NCBI RefSeq assembly: GCF_000020025.1
Contig: NC_010628.1
Location: 7,560,001-7,592,000, forward strand
Reading direction: 5' to 3'
Source: Nostoc punctiforme PCC 73102
GTDB taxonomy: Bacteria; Cyanobacteriota; Cyanobacteriia; Cyanobacteriales; Nostocaceae
Length of the DNA: 32,000 bases
The notes beneath the pieces were generated by a model that worked only from the letters and a program-made list of their open reading frames with translations, had not been told where the DNA came from and did not search any database. The stretch's first letter is position 1, and each line of letters begins with the position of its first letter. Made by a program: the position numbers and the translations under genes. Of this stretch, positions 7,104 to 12,604 are shown piece by piece.

Positions 7104-7169
7104 GTGCGATTTTTCCTTGTAGCTTCAAAAACTAAGTGTTACTATTTACTAGTAAATCGCATATCTACT

Positions 7170-8264
7170 ATGAACAATAATTCTCAAGGAAATCAAAGTA
7201 ATCCAAACAATCAACTTATAAGCATTTCTAACACTAATTCTAATACAGGTGGATATGTAACTTTACCTATAGCTTCAGACCAATTTCAAGAATTTATTGT
7301 AGCTCTTTTAGGAAGACCACAAACTATTGAGAAAATAATTGCTGGAAGTTTTGAGTTAAATTGGAACGATATACAAAATTTTAATGATTTAATAGACCAA
7401 AGGTTAACTCAAAAAAATCAAGCTGTTCTTATTAGTTTTCAATCTAAAATTTATTTTAATGATGATTCATCTATACTATTAAACTCTTTTCAAGAATTGA
7501 TTACTTATCGGGAAATAAGACCAATTATTCCAACAGCTTTGGATATGAGTTGGGATTATTTAATTCATTTTAATAATAAACAACATCCAGAGAAACAAAC
7601 TATAGATATACACATACAGACGGCTTATCATGAATTAGTTGGTATAGGTAGAAATAAAAGGAATGAAATAATGTTAGAAAATTATAATATAAATAAAAAT
7701 TTTATTCAATTATCAATAAAGTATACAGCTAGAACATGGGGAATGGATATGCAATCTCTACTAGCTTCTCAAATAAATTCTCTAATAAAAATAGAAAATA
7801 GTCAAAAAAGATTTGTTAATAAACATAGTACATTAATCGGAGCCATTTCTGGTACAAGCTTTTTTCTAGGTTCTATTATAGGAACATATTTAGCTAGTAA
7901 TGCATTTATAAAAAATAGATTAAATAAAGTAAATTATGATTTAAACAGAATACAAACATTACCAGACAAAATAAATATAATTGCACAATACATAGTAAAT
8001 GGAGAAACACCAAGATATTACTTGTTAGCAGCTATTTATATATTGCTTTCCTTAATAGCATCTTTTATAATATTTGCAATAGTTTTTGATAAAGCAAATA
8101 ATGAAAAGAGAAGTTTTATTCTATTAACAGATAAAGCAATTCAAGATAAAGAATCTACTCTGAAAAAAATAGATAAAAAATGGAAAGAGTTTATATTGTC
8201 TATTGTGATTAGTTTTATAGTAAATGTTCTATCTAGCTATCTATTTGCTTACATAACACGTTGA
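7170..8264 (+). CDS. Orphan membrane protein: Asn/Gln-rich N-terminus, roughly 230-aa soluble domain, three C-terminal TM helices
   Basis: I prefer ATG 7170 (MNNNSQGNQSNPNNQ) to the GTG at 7104. The hydrophobic segments are LIGAISGTSFFLGSIIGTYLA, YYLLAAIYILLSLIASFIIFAIVF and FILSIVISFIVNVLSSYLFAYI. Codon usage is very AT-rich. Confidence 0.6.
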   Translation: MNNNSQGNQSNPNNQLISISNTNSNTGGYVTLPIASDQFQEFIVALLGRPQTIEKIIAGSFELNWNDIQNFNDLIDQRLTQKNQAVLISFQSKIYFNDDSSILLNSFQELITYREIRPIIPTALDMSWDYLIHFNNKQHPEKQTIDIHIQTAYHELVGIGRNKRNEIMLENYNINKNFIQLSIKYTARTWGMDMQSLLASQINSLIKIENSQKRFVNKHSTLIGAISGTSFFLGSIIGTYLASNAFIKNRLNKVNYDLNRIQTLPDKINIIAQYIVNGETPRYYLLAAIYILLSLIASFIIFAIVFDKANNEKRSFILLTDKAIQDKESTLKKIDKKWKEFILSIVISFIVNVLSSYLFAYITR

Positions 8265-8681
8265 TACTATTTTTTGTGTATGTCTAGACAGTAGAACTTA
8301 AATAAAGTGTAGTTACAATTTGAAAATATTAGTTGTTAAAATACTGTTCTCATAAGCAGAATTCTGATAAGTAGGTACAAAAAATCCCTACCGTCCAGTG
8401 GCAGTGAATGAAGCTCTATAAGGTGGTCGCCTACCATCTTTTAAATACGGAATTATCCCGTATTATAAAGTCATCGCAAAAACCGAGGACTTGACCACCT
8501 TTTAAATAGGCTTTAAAAGCCTTTTATGAGATTGTTGTATTTTTCTACAACCTGACCATTGTTAAAATTGGCTAGGGTTTTATATTTTAGTAACGTATAA
8601 TTAAACATTTTTAGGTTCAGCATTTTCACTTAATGAAAATAACGTAAAAATAGGTTAACTTTGAAAAGTTAATTTACTGAA

Positions 8682-9047
8682 ATGTTTAAAATGTCAGAGA
8701 ATATTCAACTTTTCTTCACATCTATTACGATAATTTTACAAGATATCAAGGAATTAAGCGTTAAATATAAAAACGAGCCTAGATTAGGGTTAACAGAAAT
8801 TATTAAGATAGCTCAAAGTCAAGGTTATGACTTAAATATAGAAGAATTAAAAAAAGTCATAACTACTTTTATGGATTTTAAAAAAGAAGAATTAAAAAAT
8901 AAAGAATACAAAACTAAAACAATAACCTTAGAAGGATGTAGTAATAAAGCTGTAACAGGTAATGAGACTTATGACCAAATAACTTATTATTGCCTACAGT
9001 ATTTGGATAACGATTTTTTAGAATCAGTATATCAACAAAAATCATAA
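8682..9047 (+). CDS. Hypothetical protein with a weak Nif11-like segment
   Basis: LTEIIKIAQSQGYDLNIEELKK resembles FIKIAKERGYDFTTDELEN in the peptide at 732-965. A hairpin plus T-run follows the gene. Confidence 0.45.
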   Translation: MFKMSENIQLFFTSITIILQDIKELSVKYKNEPRLGLTEIIKIAQSQGYDLNIEELKKVITTFMDFKKEELKNKEYKTKTITLEGCSNKAVTGNETYDQITYYCLQYLDNDFLESVYQQKS

Positions 9048-9076
9048 CTCTATAAATCTGATTTATTCAGATTTAG

Positions 9077-9104
9077 ACCCTAGTCGTTATTGGCTAGGGT
9101 TTTG
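9077..9104 (+). terminator. Terminator-like hairpin after ORF 8682-9047
   Basis: ACCCTAG (9077-9083) pairs with CTAGGGT (9094-9100) across a 10-nt loop, followed by TTTG. Confidence 0.5.
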
Positions 9105-9132
9105 AATTGTTCAAGGATACGTAGAGAGTGAA

Positions 9133-9304
9133 CTGTGTCAGGTGCGCTCTATAGTGGGGAGTATTTTATTCTATAGAGGACACCTGACACAGAGGCTAGG
9201 ATTCTTACTCAGAATAGGTTACAGCGATTTAGCTCACTTAGCGGATTTTGGGCAAACAGACACCTGACACAGCAAATTTTAAGTATTTTAGATACCTGAC
9301 ACAG
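9133..9304. repeat. Four copies of ACCTGACACAG (one inverted), two of them forming a 60-nt palindrome
   Basis: Copies: CTGTGTCAGGTG 9133-9144 (inverted), CACCTGACACAG 9181-9192, CACCTGACACAG 9261-9272 and TACCTGACACAG 9293-9304. The arms CTGTGTCAGGTGCGCTCTATAG and CTATAGAGGACACCTGACACAG are near-perfect reverse complements. Confidence 0.8.
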
Positions 9305-9353
9305 TACTATTTTAGACAGATGTTTGGGCTATCGACTTCCACAGTGACCAACA

Positions 9354-10677: not shown

Positions 10678-10844
10678 TTTAGTTATTGCTTAGGATATTT
10701 AGAGTTAGTAACAGATGCCAAAGGTTGTGTTCTCCTATAGGGGAGAGAACACGAATTTTTTCAAAATAAATCTAATCACTAAGCAAATATTTCCACCAAG
10801 CAAACCATTTTGAAATAAGTTGCCAGAAACCATGTACTCATAAT

Positions 10845-10884
10845 TAAATAGCACAAACCTCGTCTATTTGATTTAAACGAGGTT
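10845..10884 (-). terminator. Terminator hairpin downstream of the zinc-ribbon gene (module copy 1)
   Basis: AACCTCGT (10856-10863) pairs with ACGAGGTT (10877-10884) across a 13-nt loop. It lies 50 nt after the minus-strand stop at 10935. Confidence 0.5.
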
Positions 10885-10934
10885 AGTACAGAAGTATTAA
10901 TCAAAGTATTAATCAAAGTATGAATAGCTGTGGT

Positions 10935-11141
10935 TTAACGATTTAACCTTTGTACAACTCCGTCAATTGTGTCTGTTTTTAATGCTACTGGGTCAATTTG
11001 AATGCTCAGTATTGTGTTGCAACTTGGGCAGTTATAAGAAATACAATTCCATGCATCTTTGCCATTTACCTTTCCTGCAATATTTTCAATATTTATTGAA
11101 GTAATCATGGAATCACATTTTGAACATTTTCCAGCAACCAT
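10935..11141 (-). CDS. Small zinc-ribbon protein (68 aa)
   Basis: Two CxxC pairs: CSKCDS near the N-terminus and CPSCNT 30 residues later. Confidence 0.5.
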   Translation of the reverse strand: MVAGKCSKCDSMITSINIENIAGKVNGKDAWNCISYNCPSCNTILSIQIDPVALKTDTIDGVVQRLNR

Positions 11142-11315
11142 CTTTTATTTCCAAACTATAGTTCTAAGATGGTATAGATGTACTAATAAAAAGTTAACCG
11201 TATAAACACTTTAAATTATTTTAATAAATTATGGAAATATAGGTTTACTAAGTAGTACTACTTATAAGAACTTGGATTCTAGTTAACAAAATTCTAACAA
11301 CTAACTTGGAAAGGT

Positions 11316-11354
11316 AGCAAAATAAAACCCCGTCTATTTAATTTAAACGAGGCT
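11316..11354 (-). terminator. Terminator hairpin (module copy 2) downstream of ORF 11389-11706
   Basis: AACCCCGT (11326-11333) pairs with ACGAGGCT (11347-11354). The two mismatches become G-U pairs only in the minus-strand RNA. That RNA is followed by UUUAUUUU (plus-strand aaaataaa at 11318-11325). Confidence 0.6.
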
Positions 11355-11388
11355 AGTATAAATTGCAACTTTAGTTGAATAGCTAATT

Positions 11389-11706
11389 TTAGTTTTCGTG
11401 ATAATGTCCTAAATCAAAAGCAGCAATGATGTGACTACTGTTTATTGTTGCAGTCGGGTAAGTTGAAGGTGCGATTAAAAAAGGCATATTTGAGATGCTT
11501 AGAGGTGGGGTGCCAACTAATAAATTTACTTCTCTCCAGTAGGAACCGTCAGGCATTAAAGTAACTTCATTTATTCTACTAATCCCAATAACAGTACCAC
11601 TTGTAGTAAGTAGACCATAGTAAAATTCGTCTTGTCTAAGTCTTAGTTTAATCCAAGGTGGTAAATTTTCTTCAGTAGGAGTAAGTTTTTGAGTTTCTTC
11701 AGACAT
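11389..11706 (-). CDS. Hypothetical protein (105 aa from MSEETQK)
   Basis: ATG 11706 is preceded on the minus strand by GCTAAGGAGAATCACC, which contains an AGGAG Shine-Dalgarno. No motif recognised. Confidence 0.5.
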   Translation of the reverse strand: MSEETQKLTPTEENLPPWIKLRLRQDEFYYGLLTTSGTVIGISRINEVTLMPDGSYWREVNLLVGTPPLSISNMPFLIAPSTYPTATINSSHIIAAFDLGHYHEN

Positions 11707-12604
11707 GGTGATTCTCCTTAGCAATATCAATCTAGTATTCCCGTCTCTAAATTAAAAACTCTAATTTATTTTTGTTTGATTGAGTAAGTTATGAAAACTG
11801 GGCTTTACCAAAGCTATAGAGAAAAAGCATTCTGCAATCTATCAAACATAGCGCTTTTAAACAGAATTACTTATTAAAACTTGGCAAAATAGAAGCTTGC
11901 CAATAGTAGCAAGGTTAAAGGTCTGGACAGTGTGACCGTGATTATTCCTTGGTTTTTAACTTCCATACCATTTACGCTTACAGCACTACTCCATCTAAAA
12001 ATGGTTATTATAGGTTCTAACTTATGGAAATGACTATGAACCTGAAACAAAAAATAAAGGCTGTGTAGCTCAATCTGAGAGGAGTTATTTACCACAGGAT
12101 AGCTGCTACAAGGCTATAGCAGATTTGCCTTACATCTTAATGTTTCCCAGTCGGAGTAGTTAAATAACGTATGGAAAGTAGAAATTAGATATTTTCTAAC
12201 ACTATTTTTATTAATTAAGAGTCCCGTTTCCTTTAGATTCCCTAGCAAGCATAAAAAGTTGGATGAAAATATACTGAAGTATGTAAGGTATGCAACTTTT
12301 TGCATACCAAAGTGCATACATATAAATATAGGTGATAGTACTCTACCGCAGAGACAGTACCATTATGAAATCAACTTGATACACAAAATATTAAAAAAGT
12401 CAAGTTTGATATAAATTATATTAAAAACTTTCTAACAAGTTCTTAGGAATTATCGGAGACAGGTTTTATAAATGAGTTATAACCAAAAATTATATTAATA
12501 AGTCTGACATATAATTTTTCTGTATTCCAGCTATCCTTTGCAATTCTGTCTCATAGGGTAGATTAGTTTTATCCCGTGAGAGAAAACTAGGATAGCTGGG
12601 ATAG

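What the first reader, a model, noticed from the sequence alone, without database searches (positions are those of the whole stretch)
7104..12604. 5.5-kb sharply AT-rich, HIP1-free block of orphan genes abutting the 3' end of tRNA-Lys: a foreign island with unknown cargo
Composition changes abruptly at 7104, directly after the stop of an integrase remnant, and again at the tRNA 3' end (12605).

Hand counts on sampled 60-nt lines:
- 17 G+C at 7621-7680
- 10 G+C at 7921-7980
- 33 G+C at 13081-13140

By eye, the HIP1 octamer GCGATCGC occurs at least two dozen times in the window. There is no copy between 5310 and 13490.

The cargo is:
- a 3-TM protein with a large soluble N-domain
- a weak Nif11-like protein
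- a repeat-rich control region
- a TM-anchored beta-sandwich protein with a VNTR linker
- a zinc-ribbon protein
- a 105-aa protein

None has a function I can name. Islands at tRNA genes often carry defence or competition modules, so this is a reasonable place to look for a new one.
Basis: partly seen in the sequence, partly recalled or inferred. Interest (0 to 1): 0.65.

Follow-up and report, generated by a model that had tools for sequence, protein, structure and literature searches.

The report
Stranded cargo half of Nostoc integrative element
The AT-rich block next to tRNA-Lys is foreign DNA, the cargo half of a roughly 13-kb mobile element that circulates among Nostoc strains and has lost its integrase and replication genes here; its largest gene belongs to a widespread, unstudied family of membrane proteins that often sits beside phage-defence genes.

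Summary
GC is 0.309 in 7104-12603 against about 0.417 in the flanks. All 26 HIP1 copies lie outside 5310-13490. The block abuts the 3' end of tRNA-Lys(CTT).

It is foreign DNA. In 80 Nostoc relatives, homology to the window stops at the tRNA 3' end, and none carries the block there.

It is not a set of orphan genes. Window 6856-9316 and 10722-12588 are 98.6% identical to an element in Nostoc sp. JL34 at tRNA-Arg(CCG). That element still has a partial-tRNA repeat, a 478-aa tyrosine integrase and a 924-aa protein where the FACHB-133 copy has its primase. A 13.2-kb relative in Nostoc sp. FACHB-133 sits at tRNA-Pro(GGG), with perfect 50-nt att repeats, GC 0.316 and no HIP1.

In the window the mobility half is missing. 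Homology ends at the right end of an IS630 copy, so the island is stranded.

The slot between the conserved modules holds different genes in each copy.

The 364-aa 3-TM protein has homologues in several phyla. It has no conserved partner gene. It is always 6.5-25 GC points below its surroundings. It lies in prophages and beside Gabija, DarT, reverse-transcriptase, Cas1 and AbiH genes. I read it as a candidate single-gene phage-defence protein (inferred, about 0.3).

Overall this is an ordinary kind of island with one promising gene.

The parts
12605..12676 (-). tRNA-Lys(CTT). Its 3' end faces the island. Homology with 80 Nostoc relatives stops here.
   Evidence: ARAGORN; Rfam tRNA at 67.6 bits; blastn against L001-L080 ends at window 12602-12605 in most loci.
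12576..12588 (-). Outer end of the element, carrying the motif AGTTTTCTCTCAC and starting 16 nt after the tRNA. The same motif, usually doubled, lies 15-47 nt after the tRNA in intact elements of Nostoc L019, L010 and JL34. I read it as a likely integrase arm-type site (inferred).
   Evidence: Junction alignment and motif search.
10722..12588 (-). tRNA-proximal conserved module. It is 98.6% identical to Nostoc sp. JL34 DNA next to tRNA-Arg(CCG), and 94.8% identical (up to window 12350) to Nostoc sp. FACHB-133 DNA next to tRNA-Pro(GGG). The orientation relative to the tRNA is the same in all three.
   Evidence: blastn; per-segment identity of 98-100% over 10935-12095; tRNAs.
11389..11706 (-). 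p105, a 105-aa protein with no family. Only four homologues were found, at 52-99% identity. It is followed by a hairpin terminator at 11326-11354.
10935..11141 (-). p68zn, a 68-aa protein with two CxxC pairs (zinc-ribbon-like). It always lies downstream of p105. It is followed by a near-identical 34-nt hairpin at 10855-10888.
   Evidence: No significant family match.
9317..10721 (+). Variable-slot content specific to the window's copy, holding p75 (9354-9581) and p299 (9778-10677). JL34 diverges from the window over 9317-10721; FACHB-133 diverges over 8568-10721 and holds other genes there.
   Evidence: blastn break points. p75 has a 60%-identical fragment next to tRNA-Lys in L066.
9778..10677 (+). 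p299. It has an N-terminal TM anchor, a transthyretin-like (CarboxypepD_reg) beta-sandwich, a (TPTV)n linker encoded by the 12-nt x 5.9 repeat at 10225-10295, and a second beta-sandwich. It belongs to a family of about 300-aa proteins whose named members are from Nostoc.
   Evidence: phmmer found 101 hits, 20 of them at E<=1e-10. 31 of 34 family members match PF13620. AF2 pLDDT is 84. Foldseek TM-scores (normalised to the target) are 0.67-0.78 to transthyretin-like domains. Repeat.
9133..9304 (.). Four copies of the 13-mer ACACCTGACACAG (three direct, one inverted), just inside the left edge of the variable slot. Function unknown; it could be an operator array or a recombination site.
   Evidence: Four copies found against 0.5 expected.
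8682..9047 (+). p121, a 121-aa protein that is 100% identical in JL34. Its Nif11 resemblance is sub-threshold only.
7170..8264 (+). p364, with an alpha+beta N-domain (about residues 30-205) followed by three long TM helices. It is the founding member here of a widespread uncharacterised family with the conserved motifs LLGxPQTI, QRIxQQN, PEKQ, HTARTWGxD and PSFILLT. It is a candidate defence or exclusion gene.
6888..7100 (+). 71-aa fragment of a tyrosine recombinase (the region around the first catalytic Arg). It is an old internal remnant, present in the JL34 copy (98.6% aa identity) and more decayed in the FACHB-133 copy.
   Evidence: phrog_1 E 1.5e-3 and XerA E 3.3e-3.
5718..6856 (+). IS630-family insertion sequence. 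It has 29-nt inverted repeats, flanking TA dinucleotides, and a transposase in two ORFs (HTH_32/33, then DDE_3). Its right end is exactly where homology to the JL34 element begins, so it marks the break that removed the mobility half.
5369..5434 (.). Three tandem 22-nt units. Positions 5412-5425 are identical to 12600-12613, which are the last 10 nt of the tRNA plus 4 nt beyond it. Whether this belongs to the island is uncertain; it could be a degenerate att remnant or an operator array.
   Evidence: E 0.011.

Best explanation
**What it is (shown).**
- Window 6857-12588 is the tRNA-proximal cargo part of a tyrosine-integrase integrative element family, about 13 kb long, that moves among Nostoc strains.
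- The family is AT-rich and HIP1-free.
- An intact copy is laid out as follows: partial-tRNA repeat, inward-facing integrase, VapE-type primase-helicase, small regulators, old integrase fragment plus p364, variable cargo slot, p68zn-p105, complete tRNA.
- Different integrase modules place otherwise near-identical elements at different tRNA genes: Pro-GGG in FACHB-133 and Arg-CCG in JL34.

**How it came to be here (inferred).**
- The window's copy entered tRNA-Lys(CTT) through an integrase like that of Nostoc L019/L010. Elements with that integrase occupy this same tRNA in relatives and carry the same end motif.
- A rearrangement at an IS630 copy then removed the integrase and replication half together with the distal att site.
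- What remains cannot excise. It persists as a fixed island.

**What the genes do.**
- Shown: the retained genes are intact, and p364 evolves under purifying selection.
- Inferred, probability about 0.3: p364 is a stand-alone phage-defence or superinfection-exclusion protein. Its cytoplasmic N-domain would sense an infection cue, and its three-helix membrane part would act on the membrane.
- p299 is an envelope-exposed protein with two beta-sandwich domains.
- p105 and p68zn are conserved element genes of unknown role.
For: **Foreignness.**
- GC 0.309 against about 0.417, and no HIP1.
- Homology to 80 relatives stops at the tRNA 3' end, and the block is absent from that locus in all of them.

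**Same element elsewhere.**
- Window 6856-9316 matches L181 at 98.6%, and window 10722-12588 matches L090 at 98.6%. Both loci are from Nostoc sp. JL34, whose core DNA at the kinase locus is only about 88% identical to the window.
- p364 is 99.7% identical in JL34, p121 100%, the integrase fragment 98.6%, p105 99% and p68zn 98.5%.

**Intact architecture.**
- L180 (FACHB-133) has a full tRNA-Pro at 16351-16424 and a perfect 50-nt repeat at 3155-3204. Between them lie a 409-aa integrase, a 767-aa VapE protein, p364, a different cargo set, and p68zn-p105. Element GC is 0.316 against 0.432 in the flanks, and no HIP1 lies inside.
- L181 (JL34) has a 46-nt partial tRNA-Arg followed by a 478-aa integrase that is 70% identical to the L019 integrase.
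- L019 and L010 hold elements with that integrase at tRNA-Lys(CTT), with a 70-nt tRNA repeat.
- The end motif AGTTTTCTCTCAC lies at the same tRNA-proximal place in the window, L019, L010 and JL34.

**Loss of the mobility half.**
- Homology starts exactly at the IS630 right end, window 6856.
- No full integrase, primase or partial-tRNA repeat is present in the window.

**p364.**
- About 50 full-length homologues in Nostoc, Symploca, Bacteroidia, Burkholderia, Sphingobacterium and Rhodomicrobium, with no Pfam domain.
- No conserved neighbour gene in 87 loci.
- It lies in a Sphingobacterium prophage next to AbiH, next to PDDEXK_GAPS4, and as cargo of a small integrase-Rep element. It is also on 9 IMG/VR contigs.
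- Immediate neighbours include GajB (E 9.5e-216), DarT, an RT matching the UG17 and UG26 models, Cas1, mad3/mad8, PDC-S02 and PDC-S15.
- The gene's GC is below its surroundings in 21 of 21 loci.
- dN/dS is about 0.25 against the FACHB-133 copy.
- The AF2 model is confident (pLDDT 85.6), with three long C-terminal helices.
Against: **On the history of the island.**
- No attR copy of tRNA-Lys is left, so integration at this tRNA by an L019-like integrase is inferred from relatives and from a single 13-nt motif.
- The region left of the IS630 (window 1-5717) matches neither the element nor any relative's tRNA-Lys flank. The exact rearrangement therefore cannot be reconstructed.
- The JL34 element is split over two contigs, so the continuity of its middle part is assumed.

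**On a defence role for p364.**
- No PADLOC, Pfam, PHROG or NCBIfam model matches it.
- No structural neighbour has a useful score. The best is a CYTH protein at E 8e-4 with TM-score 0.2.
- In two Nostoc genomes the homologue sits alone between housekeeping genes.
- The neighbour census has no matched background control.
- The window's copy has K82 where the family has a nearly invariant Q.
- There is no expression or phenotype evidence.
Confidence: 0.8

Rival explanations
1. The element family is a phage satellite (PICI- or P4-like). The block would then be a satellite remnant whose genes serve helper-phage interference or packaging rather than the host.
For: Intact relatives combine an inward-facing integrase, a VapE-type primase-helicase, small regulators (RHH-like) and a variable cargo slot. 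This is the layout of P4-like satellites and of PICI-like tycheposons (PMC9122126, listed). AT-rich hot spots of defence genes are typical of satellites.
Against: No capsid, small terminase, Sid/Psu-like or packaging gene was seen in L180 or L181. The VapE protein and p105 gave no relatives in 2.9 million viral contigs. The block has no DNA match in the phage collection. This rival also overlaps with the main explanation rather than excluding it.
Confidence: 0.2
2. The block is a remnant of a type V-K CRISPR-associated transposon or another Tn7-like element, since such elements home to this same tRNA-Lys in relatives.
For: Four relatives carry Cas12k (E = 0), with TGTACA ends 9-16 nt after tRNA-Lys and a spacer-like stretch matching the tRNA. 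The window's element also starts 16 nt after the tRNA. A 3 x 22-nt tandem array at 5369-5434 resembles a transposase-binding array in form.
Against: The window shows no similarity to the relatives' CASTs by blastn or tblastx. It has no CRISPR repeat, and the only TGTACA in window 1-13000 lies inside p68zn, not at the island edges. The block is instead 98.6% identical to a tyrosine-integrase element.
Confidence: 0.03
3. p364 is not a defence gene. It could be an element-maintenance or competition function (for example an addiction toxin or exclusion of rival elements), or a membrane protein with a housekeeping-like accessory role.
For: It is a solo gene between housekeeping genes in two Nostoc genomes. 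It has no recognisable enzymatic motif and matches no defence model.
Against: Its distribution across phyla is patchy. It occurs in prophage accessory regions and beside several unrelated defence systems. Its GC is consistently atypical for its host.
Confidence: 0.45
4. The block is native, fast-evolving AT-rich DNA rather than horizontally acquired DNA.
For: Several other short AT-rich stretches exist in the window, for example 26001-26500 at GC 0.27.
Against: The block is absent at this locus in 80 relatives. Near-identical copies lie at two other tRNA genes in strains whose core DNA is far more diverged, and one of them is bounded by perfect att repeats.
Confidence: 0.02

Closest known systems
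tRNA-targeting integrative elements that build additive genomic islands, in particular the tycheposons of Prochlorococcus (Hackl et al., bioRxiv 10.1101/2020.12.28.424599; read)
   Same: - Both integrate at the 3' part of tRNA genes and leave partial-tRNA repeats.
- Both have an inward-facing tyrosine integrase at the distal end, with a small primase/helicase module next to it and cargo towards the tRNA.
- In both, integrase variants go with different tRNA targets.
- In both, degenerate fragments without clear boundaries accumulate next to the tRNA, and variability is highest there. All of this is seen here.
   Different: - The host is a large-genome filamentous Nostoc, not a streamlined marine picocyanobacterium.
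- I did not test whether the integrases belong to the tycheposon-specific lineage or share its hallmark gene set.
- The cargo here is small genes of unknown function rather than nutrient-uptake operons.
- The window's copy has no integrase, so it is a remnant and not an element.
Variable defence hot spots inside P2 prophages and P4-like satellites (Rousset et al. 2022, PMC9122126)
   Same: Conserved flanking modules (p364 side and p68zn-p105 side) enclose a slot whose content differs between otherwise near-identical elements: window 9317-10721 against JL34, and window 8568-10721 against FACHB-133.
   Different: No slot gene here matches a known defence family. The element has not been shown to be a phage or a satellite. 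Only three copies were compared.
Single-gene membrane-acting abortive-infection or exclusion proteins (a general class, recalled from memory as a lead only)
   Same: p364 is a stand-alone gene with a soluble N-domain and C-terminal TM helices. It is carried by prophages and islands, lies beside other defence genes, and has atypically low GC.
   Different: No sequence or structural relationship to any described member was found, and its function is untested.
Type V-K CRISPR-associated transposons of cyanobacteria (CvkR paper PMC9938897, listed)
   Same: They occupy the same site, 9-16 nt downstream of tRNA-Lys(CTT), in four related Nostoc genomes.
   Different: The window has no Cas12k, no Tn7-like genes, no TGTACA ends and no CRISPR repeats.

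Membership tests
tRNA-linked integrative element (tyrosine-recombinase type) | Lies directly at the 3' end of a tRNA gene | tested here: met
   The element end at 12588 is 16 nt from the tRNA-Lys(CTT) 3' end.
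tRNA-linked integrative element (tyrosine-recombinase type) | Encodes a complete site-specific integrase | tested here: not met
   Only a 71-aa internal fragment is present (6888-7100). Intact relatives have integrases of 409 aa (L180) and 478 aa (L181). A separate frameshifted integrase at about 2400-3581 belongs to other DNA.
tRNA-linked integrative element (tyrosine-recombinase type) | Flanked by a direct repeat of the tRNA 3' part (attL/attR) | tested here: not met
   The window has no second copy; the best match is a 14-nt identity at 5412-5425. Relatives have repeats of 50 nt (L180), 46 nt (L181) and 70 nt (L019).
tRNA-linked integrative element (tyrosine-recombinase type) | Presence/absence polymorphism among close relatives, and the same element at other sites | tested here: met
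   Absent at tRNA-Lys in 80 relatives. Copies 95-99% identical lie at tRNA-Arg and tRNA-Pro in two strains.
tRNA-linked integrative element (tyrosine-recombinase type) | Composition deviates from the host | tested here: met
   GC 0.309 against 0.417 with no HIP1. The intact L180 element has GC 0.316 against 0.432 and no HIP1 inside.
Tycheposons (as defined in 10.1101/2020.12.28.424599) | Integrase of the tycheposon-specific lineage and the shared hallmark gene set | not tested
   No phylogeny or hallmark profiles were available. Only the gene order and tRNA targeting were compared.
Type V-K CAST / Tn7-like transposon | TGTACA-type ends with TnsB sites, cas12k, tnsB/tnsC/tniQ and a CRISPR array | tested here: not met
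   No blastn or tblastx match to the relatives' CASTs and no repeat or end motif at the block.
Known anti-phage defence systems (PADLOC-DB 2.0.0) | Match of any island protein to a defence-system model | tested here: not met
   No hit for five proteins. There are only weak hits (E 3e-3) of the zinc ribbon to PtuB models.
CYTH / triphosphate tunnel metalloenzyme fold (p364 N-domain) | Eight-stranded tunnel fold with the ExExK signature | tested here: not met
   Foldseek's best hits are CYTH proteins, but at E 8e-4 with TM-score 0.2, and TTM-type viral phosphatases at E about 1e-2. No ExExK motif appears among the conserved columns.
CarboxypepD_reg (transthyretin-like) domain proteins (p299) | Transthyretin-like beta-sandwich domain | tested here: met
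   31 of 34 family members match PF13620, although the window's own copy does not. The model matches 80-aa transthyretin-like domains with target-normalised TM-scores of 0.67-0.78 and rmsd 2-4 A.
Nif11 domain (p121) | Pfam PF07862 at the gathering score | tested here: not met
   16.4 bits against a cutoff of 23.8. TIGR03798 scores 16.1 against 32.3.
IS630 family (5718-6856) | DDE_3 transposase with N-terminal HTH, terminal inverted repeats and a TA target duplication | tested here: met
   HTH_32 E 6.7e-11 and DDE_3 E 2e-16. The inverted repeats are 29 nt and 90% complementary. TA flanks both ends.

The most novel reading that the evidence does not exclude
The p364 family may be a new single-gene, membrane-acting anti-phage (abortive-infection or exclusion) system.

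- Its members are about 350 aa long and carry the motifs LLGxPQTI, PEKQ, HTARTWGxD and PSFILLT, followed by three C-terminal TM helices.
- Its sensor domain would have a fold not yet assigned to any family.
- It is spread by integrative elements, prophages and defence islands across Cyanobacteria, Bacteroidota and Pseudomonadota.

Secondary reading: the Nostoc elements that carry it have an exchangeable cargo slot that acts as a reservoir of further unknown defence or surface-modification genes, such as p299 and the FACHB-133 cargo set.
Probability: 0.3. Interest if true: 0.7.

Novelty: new member of a known kind. Interest (0 to 1): 0.45.

Why it matters
**For genome biology of Nostoc.**
- This gives a concrete, sequence-defined family of AT-rich, HIP1-free integrative elements.
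- The family swaps integrase modules to use different tRNA genes, and swaps cargo in a defined slot.
- It shows how an IS-associated break can strand the cargo as a fixed island.
- The tRNA-Lys(CTT) 3' flank emerges as a multi-occupancy hot spot. It holds tyrosine-integrase elements, type V-K CASTs and type I restriction-modification genes. This is useful for anyone engineering or comparing these genomes.

**For phage-defence research.**
- The practical yield is one testable candidate: a compact, stand-alone gene family present in several phyla.
- It has a confident structural model and no known relatives, and its genomic neighbourhood is the kind that has repeatedly led to new defence systems.
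- If it does not protect against phages, the block is simply a decayed mobile element and of routine interest.

Tried and rejected
- **Classical att repeat.** I searched for a second copy of the tRNA-Lys 3' part in the window and found none. The only match is a 14-nt identity at 5412-5425, inside a 3 x 22-nt tandem array. It was considered as a degenerate attR, but the identity ends sharply and does not continue into the tRNA body. It is left unexplained.
- **Missing integrase beside the IS630.** Removing the IS in silico and translating gives stops in all frames.
- **Family scans.** Pfam, PADLOC, PHROGs and NCBIfam on the six proteins gave nothing above threshold. PDB sequence searches on p105, p68zn, p121, p75 and the p364 profile gave nothing.
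- **p299 as an orphan.** The word-indexed search returned only TPTV low-complexity hits. This was an artefact, and exhaustive phmmer found the family.
- **Foldseek of p364.** Searches against PDB and BFVD gave only weak CYTH/TTM-like and START-like hits.
- **Rfam.** The whole window contains only the tRNA. The 870 nt between the tRNA and p105 matches no known RNA. Too few substitutions separate the copies to tell coding from non-coding sequence.
- **Collection searches.** The block has no DNA match in the plasmid and phage collections. p364 has no match in phage records and only distant full-length Acinetobacter homologues in the plasmid collection. Viral-contig scans with VapE and p105, and a metagenome scan with p105, found nothing.
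- **CAST remnant hypothesis.** Rejected.
- **Conserved partner gene for p364.** None was found in 87 loci.
- **Ancestral flank of tRNA-Lys.** The flank seen in 22 relatives is not present anywhere in the window. The variable region therefore extends beyond the window's left end, or the locus is rearranged.

Full report
**1.
- GC is 0.309 in 7104-12603, against 0.416 to the left and 0.418 to the right. The lowest-GC 5.5-kb window of the whole sequence starts at 7101.
- HIP1 (GCGATCGC) occurs 26 times against 0.07 expected, with none between 5310 and 13490. At the outside density, zero copies has a probability of 0.0045 for the block and 1.3e-4 for the whole gap.
- tRNA-Lys(CTT) lies on the minus strand at 12605-12676, so its 3' end faces the block.
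- GC3 of the six ORFs is 0.13-0.38, against 0.42 for the adjacent histidine kinase.

**2. Anatomy of the region.**
- The ORFs are p364 (7170-8264, +), p121 (8682-9047, +), p75 (9354-9581, +), p299 (9778-10677, +), p68zn (10935-11141, -) and p105 (11389-11706, -).
- The two ORFs at 5764-6845 are an IS630-family transposase (HTH_32/33 plus DDE_3). The IS has 29-nt inverted repeats at 5718-5746 and 6828-6856 and is flanked by TA.
- The integrase remnant proper is a 71-aa fragment at 6888-7100, with weak matches to phrog_1 and XerA.
- None of the six proteins matches Pfam, PADLOC, PHROGs or NCBIfam above threshold.

**3. The block is foreign, and the site is a hot spot.**
- A scan of one genome per species with the adjacent histidine kinase returned 80 Nostocales loci, nearly all labelled Nostoc.
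- In nearly all of them, homology to the window ends at window 12602-12605, the tRNA 3' end.
- None encodes p364, p121, p299, p68zn or p105 within 10 kb. One has a fragment of p75.
- The DNA just after the tRNA falls into 51 groups among 69 loci.
- 22 loci share a common flank that starts 0.2-3.8 kb from the tRNA. That flank is nowhere in the window.
- The site holds other mobile DNA in relatives:
  - An AT-rich element (GC 0.31 in L019) with an inward-facing 479-aa integrase, a D5/VirE-type helicase and a 70-nt tRNA repeat is present in L019 and L010. The same integrase occurs in L005 and L015.
  - Type I restriction-modification methylases occur in 5-6 loci.
  - Cas12k (type V-K CAST) occurs in 4 loci, with TGTACA ends 9-16 nt after the tRNA and a stretch matching the tRNA-Lys anticodon arm.

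**4. What the block is.**
- p105 has only four homologues. Following them, and the close relatives of p364, led to two other Nostoc strains.
- **Nostoc sp. FACHB-133 (L089/L180).**
  - The element is bounded by a full tRNA-Pro(GGG) and a perfect 50-nt repeat of its 3' part.
  - It is 13.2 kb long with GC 0.316, against 0.432 in the flanks, and has no HIP1 inside.
  - Its gene order is: att repeat, 409-aa integrase (Arm-DNA-bind_2 plus Phage_integrase, facing inward), 767-aa VapE-type primase-helicase, small ORFs, integrase fragment, p364 (96% aa identity), five other small genes, p68zn, p105, tRNA.
- **Nostoc sp. JL34.**
  - One contig (L181) has a 46-nt partial tRNA-Arg(CCG), a 478-aa integrase, a 924-aa protein and small ORFs. 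After these comes DNA 98.6% identical to window 6856-9316, which covers the integrase fragment, p364 (99.7%) and p121 (100%).
  - A second contig (L090) has DNA 98.6% identical to window 10722-12588, ending 47 nt from tRNA-Arg.
  - JL34's core DNA at the kinase locus is only about 88% identical to the window, so the element has moved recently between lineages.
- **Link to tRNA-Lys.**
  - The JL34 integrase is 70% identical to the L019 integrase that sits at tRNA-Lys(CTT).
  - The motif AGTTTTCTCTCAC, often doubled, lies 15-47 nt after the tRNA in L019, L010 and JL34. It also lies at the outer end of the window's block, 12576-12588.
  - I infer that the window's copy entered tRNA-Lys through an L019-like integrase.

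**5. Why it is only half an element.**
- Homology to the JL34 element begins exactly at window 6856, the right end of the IS630.
- Left of the IS there is no integrase N-terminus, no primase and no tRNA repeat.
- The mobility half was therefore lost in a rearrangement at the IS. Whether this was a deletion or a recombination between IS copies cannot be told from the window.
- The 71-aa integrase fragment is older than this event, because all three copies share it.
- The sharp GC step at 7104 is the junction between that fragment (GC 0.425) and the p364 cassette (GC 0.25). It is internal to the element.

**6. The variable slot.**
- The three copies share the p364 side and the p68zn-p105 side but differ in between. 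JL34 diverges from the window over 9317-10721, and FACHB-133 diverges over 8568-10721.
- The right junction lies beside a palindrome at about 10727-10752.
- The left junction with JL34 lies just after four copies of the 13-mer ACACCTGACACAG.
- p75 and p299 are therefore specific to the window's copy.

**7. The proteins.**
- **p364.**
  - About 50 full-length homologues at 28-51% identity occur in Nostoc, Symploca, Bacteroidia, Burkholderia, Sphingobacterium and Rhodomicrobium, all without a Pfam domain. A further 9 viral-contig loci and 69 metagenome loci carry it.
  - Invariant residues include R78, E141, Q143, T186, R188, W190 and D193.
  - The AF2 model is confident (pLDDT 85.6, pTM 0.73). 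It shows an alpha+beta domain at residues 36-205 followed by three long helices.
  - Structural searches give only weak CYTH/TTM-like and START-like hits, and the ExExK signature is absent.
  - No neighbour gene is conserved in 87 loci, so it acts alone.
  - Its contexts are a Sphingobacterium prophage next to AbiH, a gene next to PDDEXK_GAPS4 and transposases, a small integrase-Rep element, a Burkholderia island at tRNA-Asn, and solo insertions in two Nostoc genomes.
  - Among 105 immediate neighbours there are GajB (E 9.5e-216), DarT, an RT matching the UG17 and UG26 models, Cas1, mad3/mad8, PDC-S02, PDC-S15, NERD and Uma2. A wider census adds PDC-S52, PDC-S54 and SduA.
  - The gene is 6.5-25.5 GC points below its surroundings in 21 of 21 loci from very different hosts.
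  - dN/dS against the FACHB-133 copy is about 0.25.
  - This is the classical guilt-by-association pattern of defence genes, but I had no matched control.
- **p299.**
  - It is not an orphan. Exhaustive phmmer finds 101 relatives.
  - 31 of 34 aligned members match CarboxypepD_reg.
  - The model (pLDDT 84) shows a TM anchor, a transthyretin-like sandwich, the TPTV linker and a second sandwich.
  - I read it as an envelope-exposed protein, inferred from the TM anchor, the Pro/Thr linker and the beta-sandwich folds.
- **p105 and p68zn.**
  - They are confined to these Nostoc elements.
  - Each is followed by a near-identical 34-nt hairpin.
  - They always lie next to the tRNA, and their role is unknown.
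- **p121 and p75.** Neither has a significant match.

**8. Comparison with known systems.**
- The element family works like the tRNA-targeting integrative elements that build additive islands. The closest described case is the tycheposons.
- Membership of that lineage was not tested.
- The window's copy fails the integrase and att-repeat criteria, so it is a remnant.
- The exchangeable slot recalls the defence hot spots of P2 and P4 elements (PMC9122126).
- The block is not a CAST remnant.

**9. Verdict.**
- This is a real, foreign, well-explained island of an ordinary kind. It is a new member of a known class of elements, decayed in this genome.
- Its interest lies mainly in p364, an untested but well-supported candidate for a new single-gene defence family, and in the defined cargo slot.
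- Interest 0.45. The most novel reading not excluded is given separately, with probability 0.3.

Noticed in passing
L021, L038, L059, L068 (first 2-3.5 kb after tRNA-Lys); remnants in L064, L072: Type V-K CRISPR-associated transposons sit 9-16 nt downstream of the same tRNA-Lys(CTT) in four related Nostoc genomes. They have a TGTACA end with repeated TnsB-like sites, a CRISPR array, Cas12k (PADLOC E = 0), and a stretch (CCAATAGATTAAGAGTC) identical to the tRNA-Lys anticodon arm, as expected for a homing guide.
   Followed up: partly
L019 12386-21269; L010 12380-19972: An intact AT-rich element (GC 0.31 in L019) lies at tRNA-Lys(CTT) in Nostoc desertorum CM1-VF14 and Nostoc sp. XA010. It carries a 173-aa TM protein, an 817-aa protein, a D5/VirE-type helicase and an inward-facing 479-aa integrase, followed by a 70-nt copy of the tRNA.
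   Followed up: partly
window 5369-5434 and 12600-12613: Three tandem 22-nt units (ATAGTSGGTGAY...) lie directly at the start codon of the 122-aa ORF 5002-5370(-). One unit shares 14 identical bases with the tRNA-Lys 3' end plus 4 nt beyond it (E 0.011). The array could be an att relic, an operator array or a transposon end; this is unresolved.
   Followed up: partly
window about 2400-3581 (-): A second tyrosine integrase gene (Arm-DNA-bind_2, SAM-like domain, catalytic domain) is broken by a frameshift; its RHTFAT...LHYY C-terminal part lies in another frame. It is 31% identical to the FACHB-133 element integrase. It faces away from the tRNA and is probably the relic of an older element.
   Followed up: partly
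window 1-5717: The whole left flank is absent from the tRNA-Lys neighbourhood of all 80 relatives, although it has normal GC and HIP1 density. It holds a Nif11 protein (708-965), an RlaP-type nucleotidyltransferase (1262-2353), the broken integrase and five small unknown ORFs. The variable region therefore extends beyond the window's left end, or the locus is rearranged.
   Followed up: partly
window 9133-9304: The 13-mer ACACCTGACACAG occurs four times (three direct, one inverted; 0.5 expected) upstream of p75. The array sits just inside the point where the JL34 element diverges from the window (9316/9317).
   Followed up: partly
window 10855-10888 and 11325-11358: A 34-nt hairpin element (AAACCYCGTCTATTTRATTTAAACGAGGYTAGTA) is repeated after p68zn and after p105. 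Both copies score as intrinsic terminators on the minus strand.
   Followed up: no
21 loci carrying p364 homologues (L081-L179): Genes of the p364 family are 6.5-25.5 GC points poorer than their surroundings in every host examined, including hosts with 62-67% GC. Low GC is therefore a trait of the family and not only a sign of recent arrival.
   Followed up: yes
window 7413-7415 (p364 residue 82): The window's p364 has Lys at a position where the family has a nearly invariant Gln (the QQN motif). The FACHB-133 copy has Gln. This could weaken the protein's function in this strain.
   Followed up: no
L181 3775-3800 and L090 9100-9130: In the JL34 element the motif CATTTTCTC(TC)AGTTTTCTCTSAC occurs near both ends in inverted orientation, as expected for integrase arm-type sites. 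L019 has similar copies at both ends.
   Followed up: partly
window 251-1000, 17001-17500, 26001-26500: Other short AT-rich stretches are present (GC 0.27-0.33), most markedly at 26001-26500. They were not examined.
   Followed up: no
L088 9073-10187 and window 5718-6856: An IS630-type transposase in two ORFs also lies immediately next to the p364 homologue in an unrelated cyanobacterial integrative element. This is probably coincidence.
   Followed up: no
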